Part shown: positions 19,786-36,125 of the stretch, one piece after another | Layout: each line of letters begins with the position of its first letter | How positions within the stretch are numbered: the first letter of the stretch is position 1 | DNA from: Candidatus Woesearchaeota archaeon | Lineage (GTDB): Archaea > Nanobdellota > Nanobdellia > Pacearchaeales > GW2011-AR1 | Direction of reading: 5' to 3' | DNA length: 39,940 bases | NCBI GenBank assembly: GCA_964545215.1 | Contig: CAZJEV010000001.1 | Span: 1-39,940, forward strand | The notes under the pieces: model-generated | What the model saw: only the letters and a program-made list of their open reading frames with translations | What the model was told of the DNA's origin: nothing | Databases searched by the model: none | Program-made: the position numbers and the translations under genes

Positions 19786-21039
19786 ATGGAATCAAAAAAT
19801 ATTTTGGTTTTACTTGTTGCAGTACTTGCGCTGGTTTTTTTATTGACTGGTGTAAGCGCTACGCATGAGAACATACAAGGACTTGTGCATAATTTTGCAA
19901 AGATTACAAGTGTTGAAGTTAATGGCGTTGAAAGTGCCGGAGCATTGAGCGGCGCCGCTATTAATGTTGGGGCTTTTGCAGGAGAAACTCTTCCTGTAAG
20001 AGTTACATTCCAAGCACTTGATAATGCGAGCGATGTTAGGCTAAAAGTGTGGATTTCTGGCGAAGAAAGCAATGCGGCTTCTTCTAATAGGTTTGATGTA
20101 ATAACAGGAAGTACATATAGTAGACTTGTTGCTGTACCTATACCTTTTGACATTGAGCCTGAAGAAGAAATGAGATTATATATCTCATTGGAAAGCAGAG
20201 ATGGAGGATTGCCTACTGCCGACATTGTAAGAATAAAAGCTCAGAGAGAATCTTATATTGTAGAGATTCTTGATGCAAACATGCCTACTGAAATAAGAGC
20301 TGGAGAAAATCTTGTTGTTGATGTTGTTTTGAAGAACAGAGGCAGACAAGAAGCTGAAGACACTTTTGTAAGAGCTAAAATACCTACATTAGGTGTTGAA
20401 GGAAGAGCTTACTTTGGAGATTTATCGCCTGTAGATCAAGACGACCCAGATAAGGAAGACTCTGCTCAAAGAAGGATTGTTTTAAACATCCCAAGAAGCG
20501 CTAAAGCCGGAGTTTATGTTGTTGAGCTTGAAGCTTATAACAGCGATTCTGCCACTACATTGAGCAAAAAAGTCTCAATAGCTGGCGCATCAGAAGCAGA
20601 CAGCGCTGTCATTTCCAGATCTGCTTCAAAGACATTTGGAGTAGGAGAAAAGGAAACATACAGCCTTACCTTGGTAAATTCTGGAGACAGAGTTAGAATC
20701 TATGAACTGGTTGGGGAGAGTTCTAGCGAGAATCTGGAAGTCAGCGTAGATGATTCAGTCGTAGTAGTTCCAGCAGGAGAAAGCAAGACTGTTGATGTAA
20801 ATGCCAGAGCCTTAAAAGCGGGCAAATATACATTTGCAGTAAATGTAATCTCTAATGGCGACCTTGTCAAGCAAGAAAGCTTTACAGCAAATGTTGATGG
20901 CGGCAAAAGGACAGCAGGAAATACAACTGTATTATTGACAGTTATTCTTGCAATAATTTTTGTTGTGCTTCTCGTAGTGCTTATTGTGTTGCTAACAAGA
21001 AAACCTGAAAAAGAAGAATTCGGAGAAAGCTACTACTAA
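19786..21039 (+). CDS. Cell-surface (S-layer/CARDB-like) protein with signal peptide and C-terminal TM anchor
   Basis: N-terminal signal ILVLLVAVLALVFLLTGVSA, Ig-like repeats (..VVDVVLKNRGRQEAEDTFVRAKIP..), a C-terminal TM (TVLLTVILAIIFVVLLVVLIVLL) and a short charged tail. T-runs follow the stop. Confidence 0.7.
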   Translation: MESKNILVLLVAVLALVFLLTGVSATHENIQGLVHNFAKITSVEVNGVESAGALSGAAINVGAFAGETLPVRVTFQALDNASDVRLKVWISGEESNAASSNRFDVITGSTYSRLVAVPIPFDIEPEEEMRLYISLESRDGGLPTADIVRIKAQRESYIVEILDANMPTEIRAGENLVVDVVLKNRGRQEAEDTFVRAKIPTLGVEGRAYFGDLSPVDQDDPDKEDSAQRRIVLNIPRSAKAGVYVVELEAYNSDSATTLSKKVSIAGASEADSAVISRSASKTFGVGEKETYSLTLVNSGDRVRIYELVGESSSENLEVSVDDSVVVVPAGESKTVDVNARALKAGKYTFAVNVISNGDLVKQESFTANVDGGKRTAGNTTVLLTVILAIIFVVLLVVLIVLLTRKPEKEEFGESYY

Positions 21040-21856: not shown

Positions 21857-24772
21857 ATGGTTTACATTAAAAAGATGGTGATGTCTGGATTCAAAAGCTT
21901 TGCCAGAAGGACAGAAATTCTTTTTGACAGGGAAGTTAATGTTATTTTGGGGCCTAATGGAAGTGGAAAGACTAACCTATCGGATGCCATTTGCTTTGTC
22001 CTTGGCAGATTAAGCATAAAATCAATCAGGGCTGCAAAAGCTAAAAACCTGCTTTTCATGGGAAGCAAATACATAAAACCGGTAAAAGAAGCTGTTGTTG
22101 AGTTAGTTTTTGACAATACTGACAGAACCTTTGCAGTAGACAAAGATGAAGTTCATCTAATACGCATAGCAAGAAATAATGGGCAGGGAGTTTATAAAAT
22201 TAATGGCGAGTTAAAAACAAGAACAGAAGTTATTGAAATGCTTGCGCAAGCAGGAATTGATCCATATGGCTTTAATATAATACAGCAGGGGCAAATTCAA
22301 TCAATTGTGATAATGCATTCAGAAGACAGAAGAAAAATAATAGAAGAAGTTGCTGGGATAAGCATTTATGAATCAAGAAAAGAAAAAAGCCTTCATGAAT
22401 TAGAAAAGACAGATGAAAGGCTGAAAGAAATATCCGCAATCTTAAGAGAGAGGAGTAGTTATTTGAGAAATCTGGAAAAAGAAAGAAGCCAGGCCCTGCG
22501 ATTTAAAGAGCTTGAATTAACAGGAAAGAGGTGCAGGGCATCTATTTTGAATAAGAAAATTGAGGAAAAAAAGAAAGAGCTTGCTTCTATAATTAAATCT
22601 ATTCAGGAAAAAAGCGATGAAAAAGACAAGCTGAAAAATGAAGCTGAAAAATTGCAGAATGAAATAGAAAAATTAAATGCTGGAATTTTGGAAATTAATA
22701 AGAAAATTCAGCAGGCTTCTGGATTTGAGCAGGAAAATCTGCGCAATCAGATTGCAAATTTAAAAGCTGAATTGGAAGGATTAAAAGTAAGAAGAGAGAA
22801 TTATGAAAACAGGAGAAGTGAAGTTGAATTAAGAATTAGAGAGATGGAAAGGAGCATTCCTGAACTGGAAAATGAGATAAAGGAATTGAAAAAAGAAAGT
22901 CCTTTAATGGCGAAAAAAGCGCAGGAATTGCGCAAGAAAAAGCAGGAATTTGAGGAAATAGGGGAGCAGAGAAATAATCTCATGTCAGTTAAAAGCGGGC
23001 TGCTTTCCTTAAAAGCTTTGATTCAGGACAGGGAAAAACAGCTTTCTAAAACAAAAGCTAATTCAGATAGGATATTAAAAGATATTGAAAGCTACTCTGC
23101 AAATCTGGAATGTAAAAATGAAGAAGAAGGTAATAATAAAATAAAGAAATTAAAGAGTGAGGTAATTGAGAAAGAAAAATTATTAGGAGAGCTAAGAAAC
23201 AAGGAATTAAAAAATGAAAAAAATATTGGAATTTCTGAAGCTGAGATTGAAAAAGCCAAGTCAATTGAATCAAGGGTAAGGGAGATTGATATATGCCCTT
23301 TATGCCAAAGCAAAATTACACAAGAACATATTAAGCATGTTTTGGATGATGCAGATAAAAAGATTGAGAAAGCGCAGGAAATTTTTAATAAAGCAAGAGA
23401 AGAAATATTAAAGATAAAAGAGCAGGAAAAGAAAATACATGATGAAATTGTTTCAATAAAAAATATTATTTCTATAACTGAAAATGAGATGATAAAGCAC
23501 ACGGCAATTGAAGAAAAAAAGAAGCAATTAAAAACAGAGGTTGAAAATGAGCATGAGCTTGAAAATGAAATAAAGAAAATAAAAGAAAAGCGGAGAGCTT
23601 TTGAAATTAAAGTTCAGGGATTGCCAGGAATAGAGGAAAAATATGACGCAAAAATGCTTGAAATTGAGGAAATTTCATCAAGAACAGAGGAAGATGCTGA
23701 CACAACTATTCTTTACAAGGAAAGAGAGCTGGAAAACATAAGAAATGTAATAAAAAGAGGAAATAAGGATTTGCAGGACATAAATAATGAGATTAAGAAT
23801 CTTTTAATTAATATTGAGAGCAGAGCAAGAGCGTTGGCAGAGAGGGAAAAGCAGGAGCAGGAGTTAAATAGCAGGTTTAAAAAAATGTTTGAAACCAGGG
23901 ATTCTTTTCAGAGAGAAATCCAGGAAAAAAGCCTTGAATTGTCTGAAGTGCAGGGAGAGATAAGACAGTATGATGAGCAGGTTAATTATCTGAAAATTGG
24001 AAAAGCAAAGCTTGATGCGGAAAAAGAAGTTCTTGATATGGAAATGCAGGAATTTTCTGGATTGGAATTAATATCTGGAAGCTTAGACGCTTTGGAAGAA
24101 AGGCTAAGAAAAACGCAGGAAGCATTAATTCAAATAGGAAGCATTAATATGAGGGCTTTGGAAGTTTATGAGCAGGTTAAAAAAGAGTATGATATTGTGC
24201 AGGAAAAGGTAAATATTCTTGAAAGGGAAAAAGCAGAGATCCTGAAAATTATTGAGGAAATTGACAAGAAAAAAACAAGGACTTTTATGAAAACATTTAA
24301 GGCAATTAATGAGCTTTTTTCTCAGAACTTTTTAAAGCTTTCTGCAAAAGGCACTGCATTTTTAGAATTAGAAAATGAAGAGGATATTTTTGCGGGAGGA
24401 GTTAATATAGTTGTTAAATTGGCCAAGGGGAAATATTTTGATGTCACATCCTTATCAGGTGGAGAGCAGACTTTAGTTGCTTTGTCATTGCTTTTTGCAA
24501 TTCAGGAGCATAAACCGTATCACTTTTATATTTTTGATGAAATTGATGCTGCGCTTGACAAGAGAAATTCAGAGAGATTGGCTGCTTTGTTACATAAATA
24601 TATGAAATACGGGCAGTATATTATAATTACGCACAATGACGCTATAATAATGGAGTCTAATATTCTTTATGGAGTAAGCATGCATGATGGCGTTTCTAAG
24701 ATTTTGAGCCTGAAGGTCGGAGATGAAGAAAAGAAAGAAGAAGGTATCACTACTGAAAACAAGGCTGCATAA
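21857..24772 (+). CDS. smc: SMC-family ATPase with central CxxC (Rad50-like zinc hook) instead of a hinge
   Basis: SMC head motifs are present: GFKSFA, GPNGSGKTN, QQGQI, EEVAGISIYESRK, LSGGEQTLVALSLLFAIQ, FYIFDEIDAALD. The middle is continuous coiled-coil-like sequence with CPLC at aa 480-483 of 971 (23294-23305). Confidence 0.9.
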   Translation: MVYIKKMVMSGFKSFARRTEILFDREVNVILGPNGSGKTNLSDAICFVLGRLSIKSIRAAKAKNLLFMGSKYIKPVKEAVVELVFDNTDRTFAVDKDEVHLIRIARNNGQGVYKINGELKTRTEVIEMLAQAGIDPYGFNIIQQGQIQSIVIMHSEDRRKIIEEVAGISIYESRKEKSLHELEKTDERLKEISAILRERSSYLRNLEKERSQALRFKELELTGKRCRASILNKKIEEKKKELASIIKSIQEKSDEKDKLKNEAEKLQNEIEKLNAGILEINKKIQQASGFEQENLRNQIANLKAELEGLKVRRENYENRRSEVELRIREMERSIPELENEIKELKKESPLMAKKAQELRKKKQEFEEIGEQRNNLMSVKSGLLSLKALIQDREKQLSKTKANSDRILKDIESYSANLECKNEEEGNNKIKKLKSEVIEKEKLLGELRNKELKNEKNIGISEAEIEKAKSIESRVREIDICPLCQSKITQEHIKHVLDDADKKIEKAQEIFNKAREEILKIKEQEKKIHDEIVSIKNIISITENEMIKHTAIEEKKKQLKTEVENEHELENEIKKIKEKRRAFEIKVQGLPGIEEKYDAKMLEIEEISSRTEEDADTTILYKERELENIRNVIKRGNKDLQDINNEIKNLLINIESRARALAEREKQEQELNSRFKKMFETRDSFQREIQEKSLELSEVQGEIRQYDEQVNYLKIGKAKLDAEKEVLDMEMQEFSGLELISGSLDALEERLRKTQEALIQIGSINMRALEVYEQVKKEYDIVQEKVNILEREKAEILKIIEEIDKKKTRTFMKTFKAINELFSQNFLKLSAKGTAFLELENEEDIFAGGVNIVVKLAKGKYFDVTSLSGGEQTLVALSLLFAIQEHKPYHFYIFDEIDAALDKRNSERLAALLHKYMKYGQYIIITHNDAIIMESNILYGVSMHDGVSKILSLKVGDEEKKEEGITTENKAA
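24702..24727 (+). repeat. 26-bp direct repeat, copy 1 (inside smc 3' end)
   Basis: TTTTGAGCCTGAAGGTCGGAGATGAA, identical to 25796-25821. Confidence 0.95.
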
Positions 24773-24783
24773 ATTTATTTATC

Positions 24784-25203
24784 CTATTCAGAAGCAATTT
24801 TCTTTAATTTCTCATAAATTTCATCTAGAAACTTTTTTACCTTTTCAGCATATTCCAAGCTTACTTCTTTTCCATAGTACTTTGTTCCATGCCTAATCTC
24901 CCTTAATTTATCAACAAAAATAACTTCGTCTTTAGAAAATTCAAGATTTGATAAATAAGAAACGACTGCCTCATGATTATAACTTTTATATCCTTCTTTG
25001 CTAAGCTTGGCTTCTAAAAGCTCTCTTATAATATCGTAAGATTCTTCAATTATTTGAATTGCTGTTTCCTCATTCATTGGCAGGTATTTTTCCATAATTG
25101 CTTTTCTTTTTCCCGCCCCTTCAATCAAGCTTTTCGCTCTCGCCTCATCTTTTTTCTTTTTCTTTACTAAGCCTTGCTCCAGAAATTCTTCAAAAGTCCT
25201 CAT
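24784..25203 (-). CDS. HEPN-domain protein (toxin of HEPN/MNT pair)
   Basis: 139 aa, helical, with C-terminal ..KLREIRHGTKYYG..SLEYAEKVKKFLDEI.. in the HEPN pattern. ATGA overlap with the upstream MNT gene. Confidence 0.7.
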   Translation of the reverse strand: MRTFEEFLEQGLVKKKKKDEARAKSLIEGAGKRKAIMEKYLPMNEETAIQIIEESYDIIRELLEAKLSKEGYKSYNHEAVVSYLSNLEFSKDEVIFVDKLREIRHGTKYYGKEVSLEYAEKVKKFLDEIYEKLKKIASE

Positions 25204-25739
25204 AATTTTATAGTTCCTTCCAGCACTATGCCATTAACAATATTTTCCTTTAAATTCTTATGCACTGATTTTATATCCTTAAAAAAATGCAGCTGAACCT
25301 CTCTCTTTAATTTATCGCTGTATCTTGCCAATTCATCAAGATGTTTTTCTGAATATCCTATAATTGCTATGTCTATATCGGATTCTTCTGTGTCCTCCCC
25401 ATAAGAATAGCTTCCAAAAATAATTATAGTTGAACCAGGAAATTTATCAGATAAATAATATACGAGTCCGCTTTGATAAAGTGACTTAAGATTATTAATT
25501 CTTTTTAATATGAATGTTTCTTTATTATCCCTATTAAGCCTTATGGATAGAGTAAAATCCTTGCTTATTTTTACTAAATTCTGGCTTTCAAGGCTTCTGG
25601 CAGATTTTATAACTCCGGAAACAGGCCTTTTTATCTTTACCGCTAAGGCTCTGCCTCTAAAAGAAGCTGTTGGATATTTGAATAAAAAATCCAGTATTTC
25701 TTTTTCTGTCTTTGTAAATTTTTTTGTATGTTTGTTCAT
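25200..25739 (-). CDS. Minimal nucleotidyltransferase (MNT) with N-terminal wHTH
   Basis: GSTIIIFGSYSYGEDTEESDIDIAII has the GS-x-G..DxD NTase motif. Start 25739 (MNKH..) is favoured over 25751 because the TATA-like box at 25761-25770 lies 31 nt upstream of it. Confidence 0.8.
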   Translation of the reverse strand: MNKHTKKFTKTEKEILDFLFKYPTASFRGRALAVKIKRPVSGVIKSARSLESQNLVKISKDFTLSIRLNRDNKETFILKRINNLKSLYQSGLVYYLSDKFPGSTIIIFGSYSYGEDTEESDIDIAIIGYSEKHLDELARYSDKLKREVQLHFFKDIKSVHKNLKENIVNGIVLEGTIKL

Positions 25740-25742
25740 ATT

Positions 25743-25760
25743 AATGAACATCTGTTCATT
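25743..25760. promoter_or_regulatory. 18-bp palindrome between TATA-like box and MNT start (candidate operator)
   Basis: AATGAACA-TC-TGTTCATT. Confidence 0.4.
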
Positions 25761-35456: not shown

Positions 35457-36125
35457 CTAAAAATCCCCTAATTTCTTCTGCTGTTTTTCAGCCAGGTGAG
35501 CCTGCCAAGTAGCCCAGGTTTTCCTGAAAAGTCCGGAGTCTTGCAATTCTGTTCCATATTTCTTTAAAAATTCTTGGGTAACAGGATCATGGACATAACC
35601 AGAGCCGAAATCTCCAAATTTCTGATGGATTTCAGCAATTGAATCTTCTCTAGCACATTTGGCTAAAATAGATGCTGCTGAGACGGCTGGATAATTAATA
35701 TCCGCCTTATGCTCACATCTGATTTCAAGATTTTTATTTTTTATGTGGGCTAAAAGCACTGCTTTCCATGCAGCAGTATTAGGGCTTGGACAGTCAACAA
35801 TAACTTTAATTGGCTCATTTTGGCCTTTAATTAAATAATTTATTATTTCTGCGGTTTTTATGGCTTCTAAAGTATTAAGATTTACTCCTTTGTTTAAGGA
35901 AAGGTCTATTTGCTCTGGAGTTGAGGAAACAATATGATACGCAATACAAATATCTTTAATTAATCCTGAAAGCTTTACTCTCTTTGGATGCAAAACTTGC
36001 TTTGAATCTTTTACTCCCTCATGTTTCAAATAATCTTGGTCTTTTTCTTTTATCAAGACTCCAGCTAAAAACATTGGGCCTATTAAGGGGCCCCTTCCAG
36101 AATCGTCAATTCCTAAAATCAGCAT
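35457..36125 (-). CDS. rnhB: Ribonuclease HII
   Basis: LILGIDDSGRGPLIGPMFLAGV, DSK and AASILAK motifs. Confidence 0.93.
   Translation of the reverse strand: MLILGIDDSGRGPLIGPMFLAGVLIKEKDQDYLKHEGVKDSKQVLHPKRVKLSGLIKDICIAYHIVSSTPEQIDLSLNKGVNLNTLEAIKTAEIINYLIKGQNEPIKVIVDCPSPNTAAWKAVLLAHIKNKNLEIRCEHKADINYPAVSAASILAKCAREDSIAEIHQKFGDFGSGYVHDPVTQEFLKKYGTELQDSGLFRKTWATWQAHLAEKQQKKLGDF

What the first reader, a model, noticed from the sequence alone, without database searches (positions are those of the whole stretch)
21857..24772. SMC-type heads joined by a coiled coil with a Rad50-like CPLC hook at the exact midpoint instead of a hinge
Seen: the head motifs are SMC-like (GFKSFA, QQGQI, EEVAGISIYESRK, LSGGEQTLVALSLLFAIQ, FYIFDEIDAALD). 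The roughly 650 residues between them are continuous Lys/Glu/Ile-rich heptad-like sequence with no Gly-rich globular hinge. CPLC sits at aa 480-483 of 971 (nt 23294-23305). Established: Rad50 dimerises through a CxxC (often CPxC) zinc hook at the coiled-coil apex. Canonical SMC proteins are clearly longer than this 971-aa product and use a globular hinge domain. Inference: this is a natural SMC-head/zinc-hook hybrid with shortened arms. No ScpA/ScpB or Mre11 gene is adjacent in this window.
Basis: partly seen in the sequence, partly recalled or inferred. Interest (0 to 1): 0.6.

Follow-up and report, generated by a model that had tools for sequence, protein, structure and literature searches.

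The report
Archaeal SMC with zinc hook apex
This tiny DPANN archaeon's only SMC chromosome-organising ATPase has no hinge domain; a Rad50-type CPxC zinc-hook motif sits at the tip of its coiled coil instead, a swap that the papers I could search report only as a laboratory construct.

Summary
ORF 21857-24772 (+) encodes a 971-aa protein with intact SMC head motifs, an unbroken coiled coil and CPLC at aa 480-483.

The heads are true SMC. NCBIfam SMC models score about 500 bits, against about 100 for Rad50 and 108 for ASRP. The best PDB match is Pyrococcus Smc. In a head tree the protein sits in a 100/100 clade beside hinge-bearing SMCs of the same class.

No SMC hinge was found in this genome or in any of 151 sampled genomes of its order, against 278 of 301 across the wider phylum. 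ScpA, ScpB and a separate Mre11-Rad50 pair are all present in the genome.

CPxC is conserved in every hook-type orthologue, at a fixed 468-469 residues from GFKSF. The roughly 90-aa hook module matches Rad50 hooks, best of all the short Rad50s of the same class.

The arms are only about 10% shorter than in hinge-type relatives. Most of the missing length is the hinge itself.

Three sister families carry SMCs of about 780-800 aa with neither hinge nor hook.

Zinc binding and dimerisation are inferred, not shown. This scan has already reported the same design on other DNA (at least 25 notes). I found no paper describing it.

The parts
21857..24772 (+). smc gene, 971 aa (P0001), hinge-less and hook-bearing
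   Evidence: ORF and translation. SMC_N E 1e-49. TIGR02168 502 bits and TIGR02169 494 bits. Pyrococcus Smc 5xei E 5e-96.
21857..22357 (+). N-terminal half of the ATPase head (aa 1-167), with Walker A GPNGSGKT at aa 32-39 (nt 21950-21973) and the Q-loop QQGQI at aa 143-147
   Evidence: Translation. Invariant columns in 31 orthologues. Secondary structure of the AF2 model.
22358..23284 (+). Ascending coiled-coil strand (aa 168-476)
   Evidence: AF2 helices 168-288, 291-332, 334-345, 352-414 and 422-476. The distance from GFKSF to CPxC is fixed at 468-469 aa in 33 orthologues.
23159..23440 (+). Hook module (aa 435-528), about 90 aa, similar to the Rad50 hook region
   Evidence: Profile A1 built on this region. 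It hits P. furiosus Rad50 hook structures 1l8d and 6zff first. Pfam Rad50_zn_hook matches 45 of 46 members. It matches the roughly 685-aa Rad50s of the same order and class at 25-51 bits.
23294..23305 (+). CPLC (aa 480-483), the putative zinc-binding cysteine pair at the coiled-coil apex, within loop aa 477-488 (nt 23285-23320)
   Evidence: Invariant in 47 of 47 homologues. CP[LVKTM]C in other families of the order. It lies in the AF2 loop between the two arm helices.
23321..24340 (+). Descending coiled-coil strand (aa 489-828)
   Evidence: AF2 helices 489-586, 589-607, 616-733, 743-760 and 771-828.
24341..24721 (+). C-terminal half of the ATPase head (aa 829-955), with signature LSGGE at aa 866-870 (nt 24452-24466), Walker B FYIFDE at aa 890-895 (nt 24524-24541), D-loop AALD and H-loop THND
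   Evidence: Translation. Invariant columns. PDB matches to Smc C-terminal head halves 3kta_B and 1xew_Y.

Best explanation
This is the organism's genuine SMC protein, the ATPase of an Smc-ScpA(-ScpB) complex. It descends from hinge-bearing archaeal SMC. The roughly 130-150-residue globular hinge has been replaced by a Rad50-type zinc-hook module, which is a CPxC turn at the tip of the antiparallel coiled coil.

Proposed mechanism (inferred): two Smc chains are held together at the arm tips by one Zn2+ ion, coordinated tetrahedrally by Cys480 and Cys483 of each chain, as in Rad50. The heads bind and hydrolyse ATP and are bridged by the kleisin ScpA. The complex then holds or extrudes chromosomal DNA as canonical Smc-ScpAB does, without any hinge-specific function.

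The hook module most likely came from a Rad50 of the same archaeal class.

What is shown: the SMC identity of the heads, the absence of a hinge, conservation of CPxC and of arm length, the presence of partner genes, and the sequence likeness of the module to Rad50 hooks.

What is inferred: zinc binding, hook-mediated dimerisation, the cellular function, and the direction of the domain transfer.
For: SMC identity:
- TIGR02168 scores 502 bits and TIGR02169 494 bits. The best Rad50 model scores 100 bits and ASRP 108 bits.
- The best PDB sequence hits are Pyrococcus and Bacillus Smc heads at 1e-96 to 1e-58. Rad50 reaches only 1e-10.
- Foldseek's top hits are condensin Smc4 and Pyrococcus Smc.
- In the head tree the order's SMCs form a 100/100 clade beside hinge-type SMCs of the same class. 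The genome's own Rad50 sits on a branch of length 10.

No hinge:
- PF06470 is absent from the protein, from the 92%-complete genome and from 151 of 151 sampled genomes of the order.
- It is present in 278 of 301 genomes of the phylum sample.
- AF2 shows a plain helix-loop-helix apex.

Hook:
- CPLC is invariant in 47 of 47 homologues. CPxC is present in families f1-f4, f8 and f9.
- Its spacing from GFKSF is 468-469 aa in 33 proteins.
- The hook profile finds the P. furiosus Rad50 zinc hook first in the PDB, in register: CPvC..lTdEH.
- 45 of 46 members match Pfam Rad50_zn_hook, best 5e-8.
- The Rad50s of the same order and class score 25-51 bits across profile positions 2-90. None of 100 flank shuffles or 200 flank swaps per protein beats the real score in 11 of 12 Rad50s; for the genome's own Rad50 one of 100 flank shuffles reached the real score.

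Partners:
- ScpA scores 38.6 bits and ScpB 117 bits in the genome. ScpA is found in 146 of 151 genomes of the order.
- A separate mre11-rad50 pair, with its own CPTC hook, lies on contig 30. The hook SMC is therefore not a replacement for Rad50.

Feasibility:
- B. subtilis Smc with its hinge replaced by the P. furiosus Rad50 zinc hook is functional (PMC5344682).
Against: - No experiment or dimer model shows zinc binding or hook-mediated dimerisation.
- Per sequence, the match to Pfam Rad50_zn_hook is below the curated cut-off: 19.6 bits against 24.3.
- Three families of the same order have SMCs with neither hook nor hinge. A tight apex joint may therefore not be essential in this lineage.
- The protein scores below the NCBIfam SMC equivalog cut-offs.
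- HMMs built from the flanks alone do not locate the Rad50 hook site. The similarity in the flanks is real but weak, and could reflect shared packing constraints rather than descent.
- Whether archaeal ScpB works with Smc-ScpA at all is disputed (PMC7055376, title and abstract listed).
Confidence: 0.77

Rival explanations
1. The protein is a true hinge-less SMC, but the CPxC turn is not an intermolecular zinc hook. It could be an intramolecular structural or redox element, or a docking site for another factor. The two chains would then be held together by arm-arm, head and kleisin contacts only.
For: SMCs in sister families f5-f7 of the same order lack both hinge and any Cys pair, and AF2 predicts a plain helical hairpin apex for one of them. 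This shows the lineage tolerates an apex without a recognisable joint. Only two cysteines are available per chain. No zinc or dimer data exist.
Against: CPxC is invariant in every hook-type orthologue, with rigidly fixed spacing. The motif and about 90 aa around it match Rad50 hooks in register. Two cysteines cannot complete a zinc site within one chain, and the nearby His at +8 is replaced by Tyr in family f4. This argues against a Cys2His2 site within one chain.
Confidence: 0.13
2. An SMC-derived protein that has changed its role, for example towards DNA repair or tethering. It might pair its hook with the similar hook of the cell's own Rad50 rather than with a second Smc chain.
For: The SMC hook module resembles the Rad50 hook module of the same class. 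Both proteins are encoded in the same genome.
Against: It is the only SMC in the genome. The head motifs are fully conserved. ScpA is retained in 146 of 151 genomes of the order. The genome's own Rad50 hook is the least similar of those tested, at 22.6 bits. Nothing links the two genes in position.
Confidence: 0.06
3. It is not an SMC at all. It would be a Rad50 paralogue or a member of the archaea-specific SMC-related proteins (ClsN/Sph), which are known to carry zinc hooks.
For: Rad50 and ASRP both have a zinc hook (PMC9389158). Weak hits to both families exist.
Against: ASRP scores 108 bits against a cut-off of 300, and Rad50 models score 100 bits or less against cut-offs of 700 or more. 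SMC models score about 500 bits. The head tree places the protein inside SMC with 100/100 support. A separate Rad50 with Mre11 exists in the genome.
Confidence: 0.02

Closest known systems
Prokaryotic/archaeal Smc of Smc-ScpAB (TIGR02168/TIGR02169; for example Pyrococcus Smc, PDB 5XEI, 5XNS, 4I99)
   Same: The head sequence and all ATPase motifs, the long antiparallel coiled coil, kleisin ScpA and ScpB genes in the genome, and phylogenetic placement beside hinge-type SMCs of the same class.
   Different: There is no hinge domain. A 12-residue CPLC loop stands in its place. The arms are about 30-50 residues per strand shorter. The protein falls below the NCBIfam equivalog cut-offs.
Engineered B. 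subtilis Smc(Zh): Smc with its hinge replaced by the P. furiosus Rad50 zinc hook (Buermann et al. 2017, PMC5344682)
   Same: The same architecture: SMC heads and arms joined by a Rad50-type zinc hook. The construct supports Smc function, provided that arm length is right. Here arm length is likewise rigidly conserved.
   Different: The present protein is natural, archaeal and fixed across an order (83 genera sampled). Its hook module resembles the short Rad50 of its own class rather than that of Pyrococcus (18.7 bits against 25-51 bits).
Rad50 (Mre11-Rad50), zinc hook PF04423; PDB 1L8D and 6ZFF
   Same: A CPxC at the coiled-coil apex, followed by x4-T-x2-H, and similarity over about 90 aa of the hook module.
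   Different: The heads are not Rad50-like (100 bits or less against cut-offs of 700 or more). There is no adjacent Mre11. The genome has its own 688-aa Rad50 next to Mre11.
Archaea-specific SMC-related proteins (ClsN/Sph; NF045487; PMC9389158)
   Same: An archaeal SMC-superfamily ATPase with a zinc-hook motif and no hinge.
   Different: ASRPs are about 600 aa and form a separate family. This protein scores 108 bits against a cut-off of 300 and groups with canonical SMC.
Hinge-less SMC of marine Actinobacteria (Sussfeld et al. 2025, PMC12153180)
   Same: A natural SMC lineage without a hinge.
   Different: Those proteins are reported to lack the CXXC motif and are bacterial. They resemble the hook-less SMCs I found in sister families (L056 and others) more than they resemble this protein.

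Membership tests
SMC proper (Smc of Smc-ScpAB) | Bipartite ABC ATPase head with Walker A, Q-loop, signature LSGGE, Walker B, D-loop and H-loop of SMC type | tested here: met
   All motifs are present and invariant in 31 orthologues. SMC_N E 1e-49. Smc head structures score E 1e-96 to 1e-58.
SMC proper (Smc of Smc-ScpAB) | Long intramolecular antiparallel coiled coil between the head halves | tested here: met
   The AF2 model is helical from aa 168 to 476 and from 489 to 828, folding back at aa 477-488.
SMC proper (Smc of Smc-ScpAB) | Central globular hinge dimerisation domain (PF06470) | tested here: not met
   No hinge hit in the protein, in the genome or in 151 genomes of the order. AF2 shows no globular centre.
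SMC proper (Smc of Smc-ScpAB) | Score above the NCBIfam equivalog cut-off | tested here: not met
   TIGR02168 scores 501.7 bits against a cut-off of 567.35. TIGR02169 scores 493.8 against 729.4. The shortfall is as expected if about 200 model positions are missing.
SMC proper (Smc of Smc-ScpAB) | Orthology: the heads group with canonical SMC in a tree | tested here: met
   The order's SMCs form a 100/100 clade among hinge-type SMCs of the class and other archaea.
SMC proper (Smc of Smc-ScpAB) | Kleisin ScpA and kite ScpB encoded in the genome | tested here: met
   ScpA at C40:2877-3509, 38.6 bits. ScpB at C15:11068-11499, 117 bits. ScpA is found in 146 of 151 genomes of the order. Physical interaction was not testable.
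Rad50 | Rad50-type ATPase head | tested here: not met
   The best Rad50 model, NF003034, scores 100 bits against a cut-off of 700. Rad50 is far removed in the tree.
Rad50 | CxxC zinc hook at the coiled-coil apex | tested here: met
   Met at sequence level only. CPLC lies at the apex. PF04423 is matched by 45 of 46 members, and by this protein at 18.6-19.6 bits, below the cut-off of 24.3. 1l8d is the top PDB hit. Zinc binding was not testable.
Rad50 | Partner nuclease Mre11, usually adjacent | tested here: not met
   No mre11 lies next to this gene. Mre11 lies next to the genome's real Rad50 on contig 30.
ASRP (ClsN/Sph) | Match to NF045487 above cut-off; about 600 aa | tested here: not met
   108.5 bits against a cut-off of 300, and the protein is 971 aa.

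The most novel reading that the evidence does not exclude
The SMC hook module is a copy of the lineage's own Rad50 hook, and both proteins coexist in the cell. The two hooks might therefore pair with each other through a shared zinc ion, physically coupling the chromosome-organising Smc complex to the Mre11-Rad50 repair complex. My evidence does not exclude this, but nothing specific supports it.
Probability: 0.03. Interest if true: 0.85.

Novelty: new variant of a known kind. Interest (0 to 1): 0.66.

Why it matters
The hinge is treated as a defining and functionally important part of every SMC protein, serving in dimerisation, DNA binding and as a possible DNA gate. Here a whole archaeal order (83 genera sampled) keeps Smc and ScpA but has no hinge.

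This is a natural counterpart of the engineered Smc(Zh) chimera. It supports the view that arm geometry, not the identity of the apex domain, is what SMC function requires, since the hook position is fixed to within one residue. It offers small, simple SMC complexes for structural and single-molecule work. It is also a clear case of a module moving between two branches of the SMC superfamily.

Tried and rejected
- Rad50 or ASRP membership was rejected on HMM scores and the head tree.
- A Cys2His2 zinc site within one chain (C480, C483, H491, H494) was considered. It is unlikely, because H494 varies within the family and the His at +8 is Tyr in family f4.
- HMMs built from the hook flanks alone failed to locate the hook site in Rad50, with scores around 0. 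I therefore claim likeness of the module as a whole, not independent homology of each flank.
- A word-index search with the apex of the hook-less variant found only its own fragment.
- A Foldseek search with the full-length model returned SMC proteins, as expected, but could not isolate the hook.
- A search of 1.84 billion representatives with the 92-aa hook window gave only 43 hits, mostly fragments and SMCs of about 950 aa. The module is rare, and the search gave no new lineages.
- Hinge-less genomes in other orders of the class were checked for a hook SMC. Four of five have no SMC at all, and one has a fragment at a contig end.
- Whether the hook was gained once or lost several times stayed unresolved. 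Hook monophyly gives AU p 0.0435, which is borderline.
Full report
**1. The observation**

The window is AT-rich (32-35% GC). It holds a single long ORF at 21857-24772 (+) that encodes 971 aa (P0001). CPLC is at aa 480-483 (nt 23294-23305), six residues from the arithmetic midpoint. Pfam gives SMC_N across aa 3-947 (E 1e-49) and no SMC_hinge.

**2. What the heads are**

- The NCBIfam SMC models score 502 bits (TIGR02168) and 494 bits (TIGR02169). Both are below their equivalog cut-offs of 567 and 729.
- The best Rad50 model scores 100 bits against a cut-off of 700. The archaea-specific SMC-related family (ASRP) scores 108 bits against 300.
- Against PDB sequences the best matches are Pyrococcus and Bacillus Smc heads (5xei 5e-96, 4i99 2e-79). 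Rad50 heads reach only 1e-10.
- I built a maximum-likelihood tree of head sequences (about 415 columns). It held 28 hook-type proteins, 6 hook-less relatives, 20 hinge-type SMCs from the same class and 5 hinge-type SMCs from other archaea. The SMCs of the window's order form one clade with 100/100 support, standing among hinge-type SMCs.
- In a first tree the genome's own Rad50 joined on a branch of length 10.

So the heads are SMC by descent, not Rad50 and not ASRP.

**3. The centre**

- AlphaFold2 with 31 orthologues (mean pLDDT 72.4) predicts two long helices, 422-476 and 489-586. They have the highest confidence in the model (pLDDT 84-93) and are joined by loop 477-488, which carries CPLC. 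The model has no globular domain.
- Foldseek finds condensin Smc4/Smc2, Smc5/6 and Pyrococcus Smc.
- The hinge profile PF06470 finds nothing in the whole 801-kb genome, which is 92% complete.
- PF06470 also finds nothing in any of 151 sampled genomes of the same order: 83 genera, 9 families, 69 of them at least 90% complete.
- In a sample of 301 high-quality genomes of the phylum, 278 have a hinge, carried on SMCs of about 1155-1170 aa.
- Of five other hinge-less genomes in that sample, four have no SMC at all and one has a fragment at a contig end.

Loss of the hinge together with retention of SMC is therefore a trait of this one order. NCBI records label its members Candidatus Pacearchaeota or Woesearchaeota.

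**4. The hook**

- CPLC is invariant in all 47 proteins retrieved with the central region, at 27-46% identity.
- The local consensus is kiD-x-CPLCQsKiT-x-eH. C, P, L, C and the His at +8 are invariant in that set.
- Other families of the order have CPVC, CPKC, CPTC or CPMC. In family f4 the His is Tyr.
- The distance from GFKSF to CPxC is 468-469 residues in 33 full-length proteins. The distance from CPxC to LSGGE is 382-392 residues. This rigidity fits the finding of Buermann et al. that Smc function depends on exact arm length (PMC5344682).
- A profile of the 94-aa hook region (A1) finds the P. furiosus Rad50 zinc hook first among all PDB sequences (1l8d E 0.013, 6zff E 0.024). The alignment is in register: CPvC...lTdEH.
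- Pfam Rad50_zn_hook is matched by 45 of 46 members, best 5e-8. This protein scores 18.6-19.6 bits, below the cut-off of 24.3. It is nevertheless the best hit to that model in the genome.
- The same A1 profile matches the short (about 685 aa) Rad50 proteins of the same order at 33-51 bits over profile positions 2-90, and those of other orders of the class at up to 46 bits.
- I kept the 19-residue core and either shuffled the flanks or replaced them with other coiled-coil windows from the same Rad50. This dropped the score to 9-26 bits. No flank swap reached the real score (0 of 200) in any of the 12 Rad50s. No flank shuffle reached it (0 of 100) in 11 of them, and one of 100 did for the genome's own Rad50.
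- HMMs of the flanks alone do not find the site, so the flank signal is weak taken by itself.

My reading is that the whole hook-bearing hairpin of about 90 aa is related to the Rad50 hook of this archaeal class, and was probably copied from it. The direction and the mechanism of that transfer are inference.

**5. Arm length**

In hinge-type SMCs of the same class, GFKSF to the start of the Pfam hinge is 505-510 aa in most. The end of the Pfam hinge to LSGGE is 435-439 aa. A joint alignment shows hinge-only blocks of 51 + 81 aa at the hook site, about 50 extra residues in the ascending arm and about 31 in the descending arm. Most of the roughly 190-200 missing residues are therefore hinge. Each arm strand is about 30-50 residues shorter, roughly 10%, or on the order of 5-7 nm.

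**6. Partners**

- The genome encodes ScpA (contig 40, 38.6 bits, above cut-off) and ScpB (contig 15, 117 bits).
- ScpA is found in 146 of 151 genomes of the order, including the hook-less families.
- Contig 30 carries mre11 (382 aa) directly upstream of a 688-aa rad50, which has its own CPTC hook at aa 346.

The hook SMC coexists with a normal Mre11-Rad50 pair and does not replace it. Whether archaeal ScpB acts with Smc-ScpA is disputed (PMC7055376, listed).

**7. How it most likely works**

- Shown: an SMC-type ATPase with intact catalytic motifs; full-length arms of fixed length; a conserved CPxC turn of Rad50 type at the apex; a kleisin gene retained.
- Inferred: two chains share one Zn2+ through four cysteines, giving a constitutive apex joint. 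ATP-driven head engagement and ScpA bridging then work as in Smc-ScpAB.
- The engineered B. subtilis Smc(Zh) chimera shows that such a design can function. I give this explanation 0.77.

**8. Complication and rivals**

Families f5, f6 and f7 of the same order have SMCs of about 780-800 aa (one assembly's copy, L024, is interrupted by masked sequence) with neither hinge nor a Cys pair. They still score about 500 bits on the SMC models. AF2 of one of them (L056, pLDDT 78.7) predicts a plain helical hairpin that turns at aa 387-391. In the head tree f5 is sister to all other SMCs of the order (100/95). The other two hook-less proteins fall near or inside the hook clade with weak support. Holding the hook types together is borderline rejected (AU p 0.0435). 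Either the hook was gained after hinge loss, or it was lost two or three times.

Either way the lineage tolerates an apex with no recognisable joint. This keeps alive the rival that CPxC is not an intermolecular zinc hook (0.13). A change of role, including pairing with the Rad50 hook, cannot be excluded (0.06). Rad50 or ASRP membership is contradicted (0.02).

**9. Comparison with what is known, and novelty**

I ran five full-text searches of the paper library. They turned up the following:
- the engineered hinge-to-hook and hook-to-hinge swaps (PMC5344682, PMC6969161);
- zinc hooks in ASRP/ClsN (PMC9389158);
- hinge-less SMCs without CXXC in marine Actinobacteria (PMC12153180).

None described a natural SMC with a zinc hook. 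The library does not cover subscription journals, so this absence is not proof.

Notes from this scan show that the same design has been reported at least 25 times on other genomes, with the same reading. Half-length versions have also been reported in CPR bacteria, which I did not test. My own additions are:
- the order-wide counts;
- the fixed hook position;
- the corrected estimate of arm length;
- the likeness of the hook module to the class's own short Rad50, with controls;
- the hook-less sister families.

Because the defining hinge is absent, I file the protein as a new variant of a known kind. It is an SMC orthologue with a different apex module, not an ordinary member of the family.

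Noticed in passing
L056:3028-5382 (G028), L057:2575-4917, L024-L028 (G029, G030, G028, G035, G040): Three families (f5, f6, f7) of the same order have SMCs with neither hinge nor any CxxC; the four complete copies are 781-804 aa. They still score about 500 bits on the SMC models. AF2 of L056 predicts a plain helical hairpin apex that turns at aa 387-391. Family f5 is the earliest branch of the order's SMC clade.
   Followed up: partly
P0013, P0018, P0024, P0027, P0030, P0035, P0037, P0042, P0045, P0047 (homologues of about 1470-1550 aa); also frames of about 1700 aa among hinge-type SMCs: Many SMC genes of this class carry an insert of about 520 aa with intein and LAGLIDADG domains (PF14890, PF14528). 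In P0013 it sits right after the Walker A lysine (GPNGSGK|), so the P-loop hosts an intein.
   Followed up: partly
L031:298-3297 (-) (G039, contig 20): One genome of family f4 has a second, very divergent SMC-like gene (1000 aa, 30% identical, CPVC at aa 502, about 496 bits on TIGR02169) besides its ordinary SMC. This may be an SMC duplication in a prokaryote.
   Followed up: partly
window 35469-36125 (-); L063:2281-2949, L067:2284-2958, L056:1394-2113 and ten other loci: RNase HII is the same-strand upstream neighbour of smc in 12 of the 14 related loci compared, both hook and hook-less types; in a 13th (L062) it lies downstream on the opposite strand. In this window it lies about 10.7 kb downstream on the opposite strand, so the linkage is broken here.
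   Followed up: partly
window 24784-25203 (-) and 25200-25751 (-): Directly downstream of smc, on the opposite strand, lies a 183-aa nucleotidyltransferase (NTP_transf_2, 6e-12). It overlaps by 4 nt a 139-aa ORF with no Pfam hit. The layout resembles a MNT/HEPN-type toxin-antitoxin pair.
   Followed up: no
window 19786-21039 (+): A 417-aa protein with Ig-like domains (HYDIN/VesB-like) and a C-terminal hydrophobic segment has homologues within 3 kb of smc in nine related loci, in varying orientation.
   Followed up: no
G000 contig 30 (L003:352-2418, L004:350-1498); L081-L090, L093, L094: The Rad50 proteins of this class are unusually short (about 670-700 aa, hook at about aa 350), roughly 200 aa shorter than the Rad50 of model archaea. 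In G000, mre11 and rad50 overlap by 4 nt and are followed by a proteasome beta subunit gene.
   Followed up: partly
G099, G226, G288, G293 (other orders of the same class): Four high-quality genomes without a hinge hit also have no detectable SMC at all (E <= 1e-10 with P0001). SMC appears to have been lost outright in several small-genome lineages of the class.
   Followed up: partly
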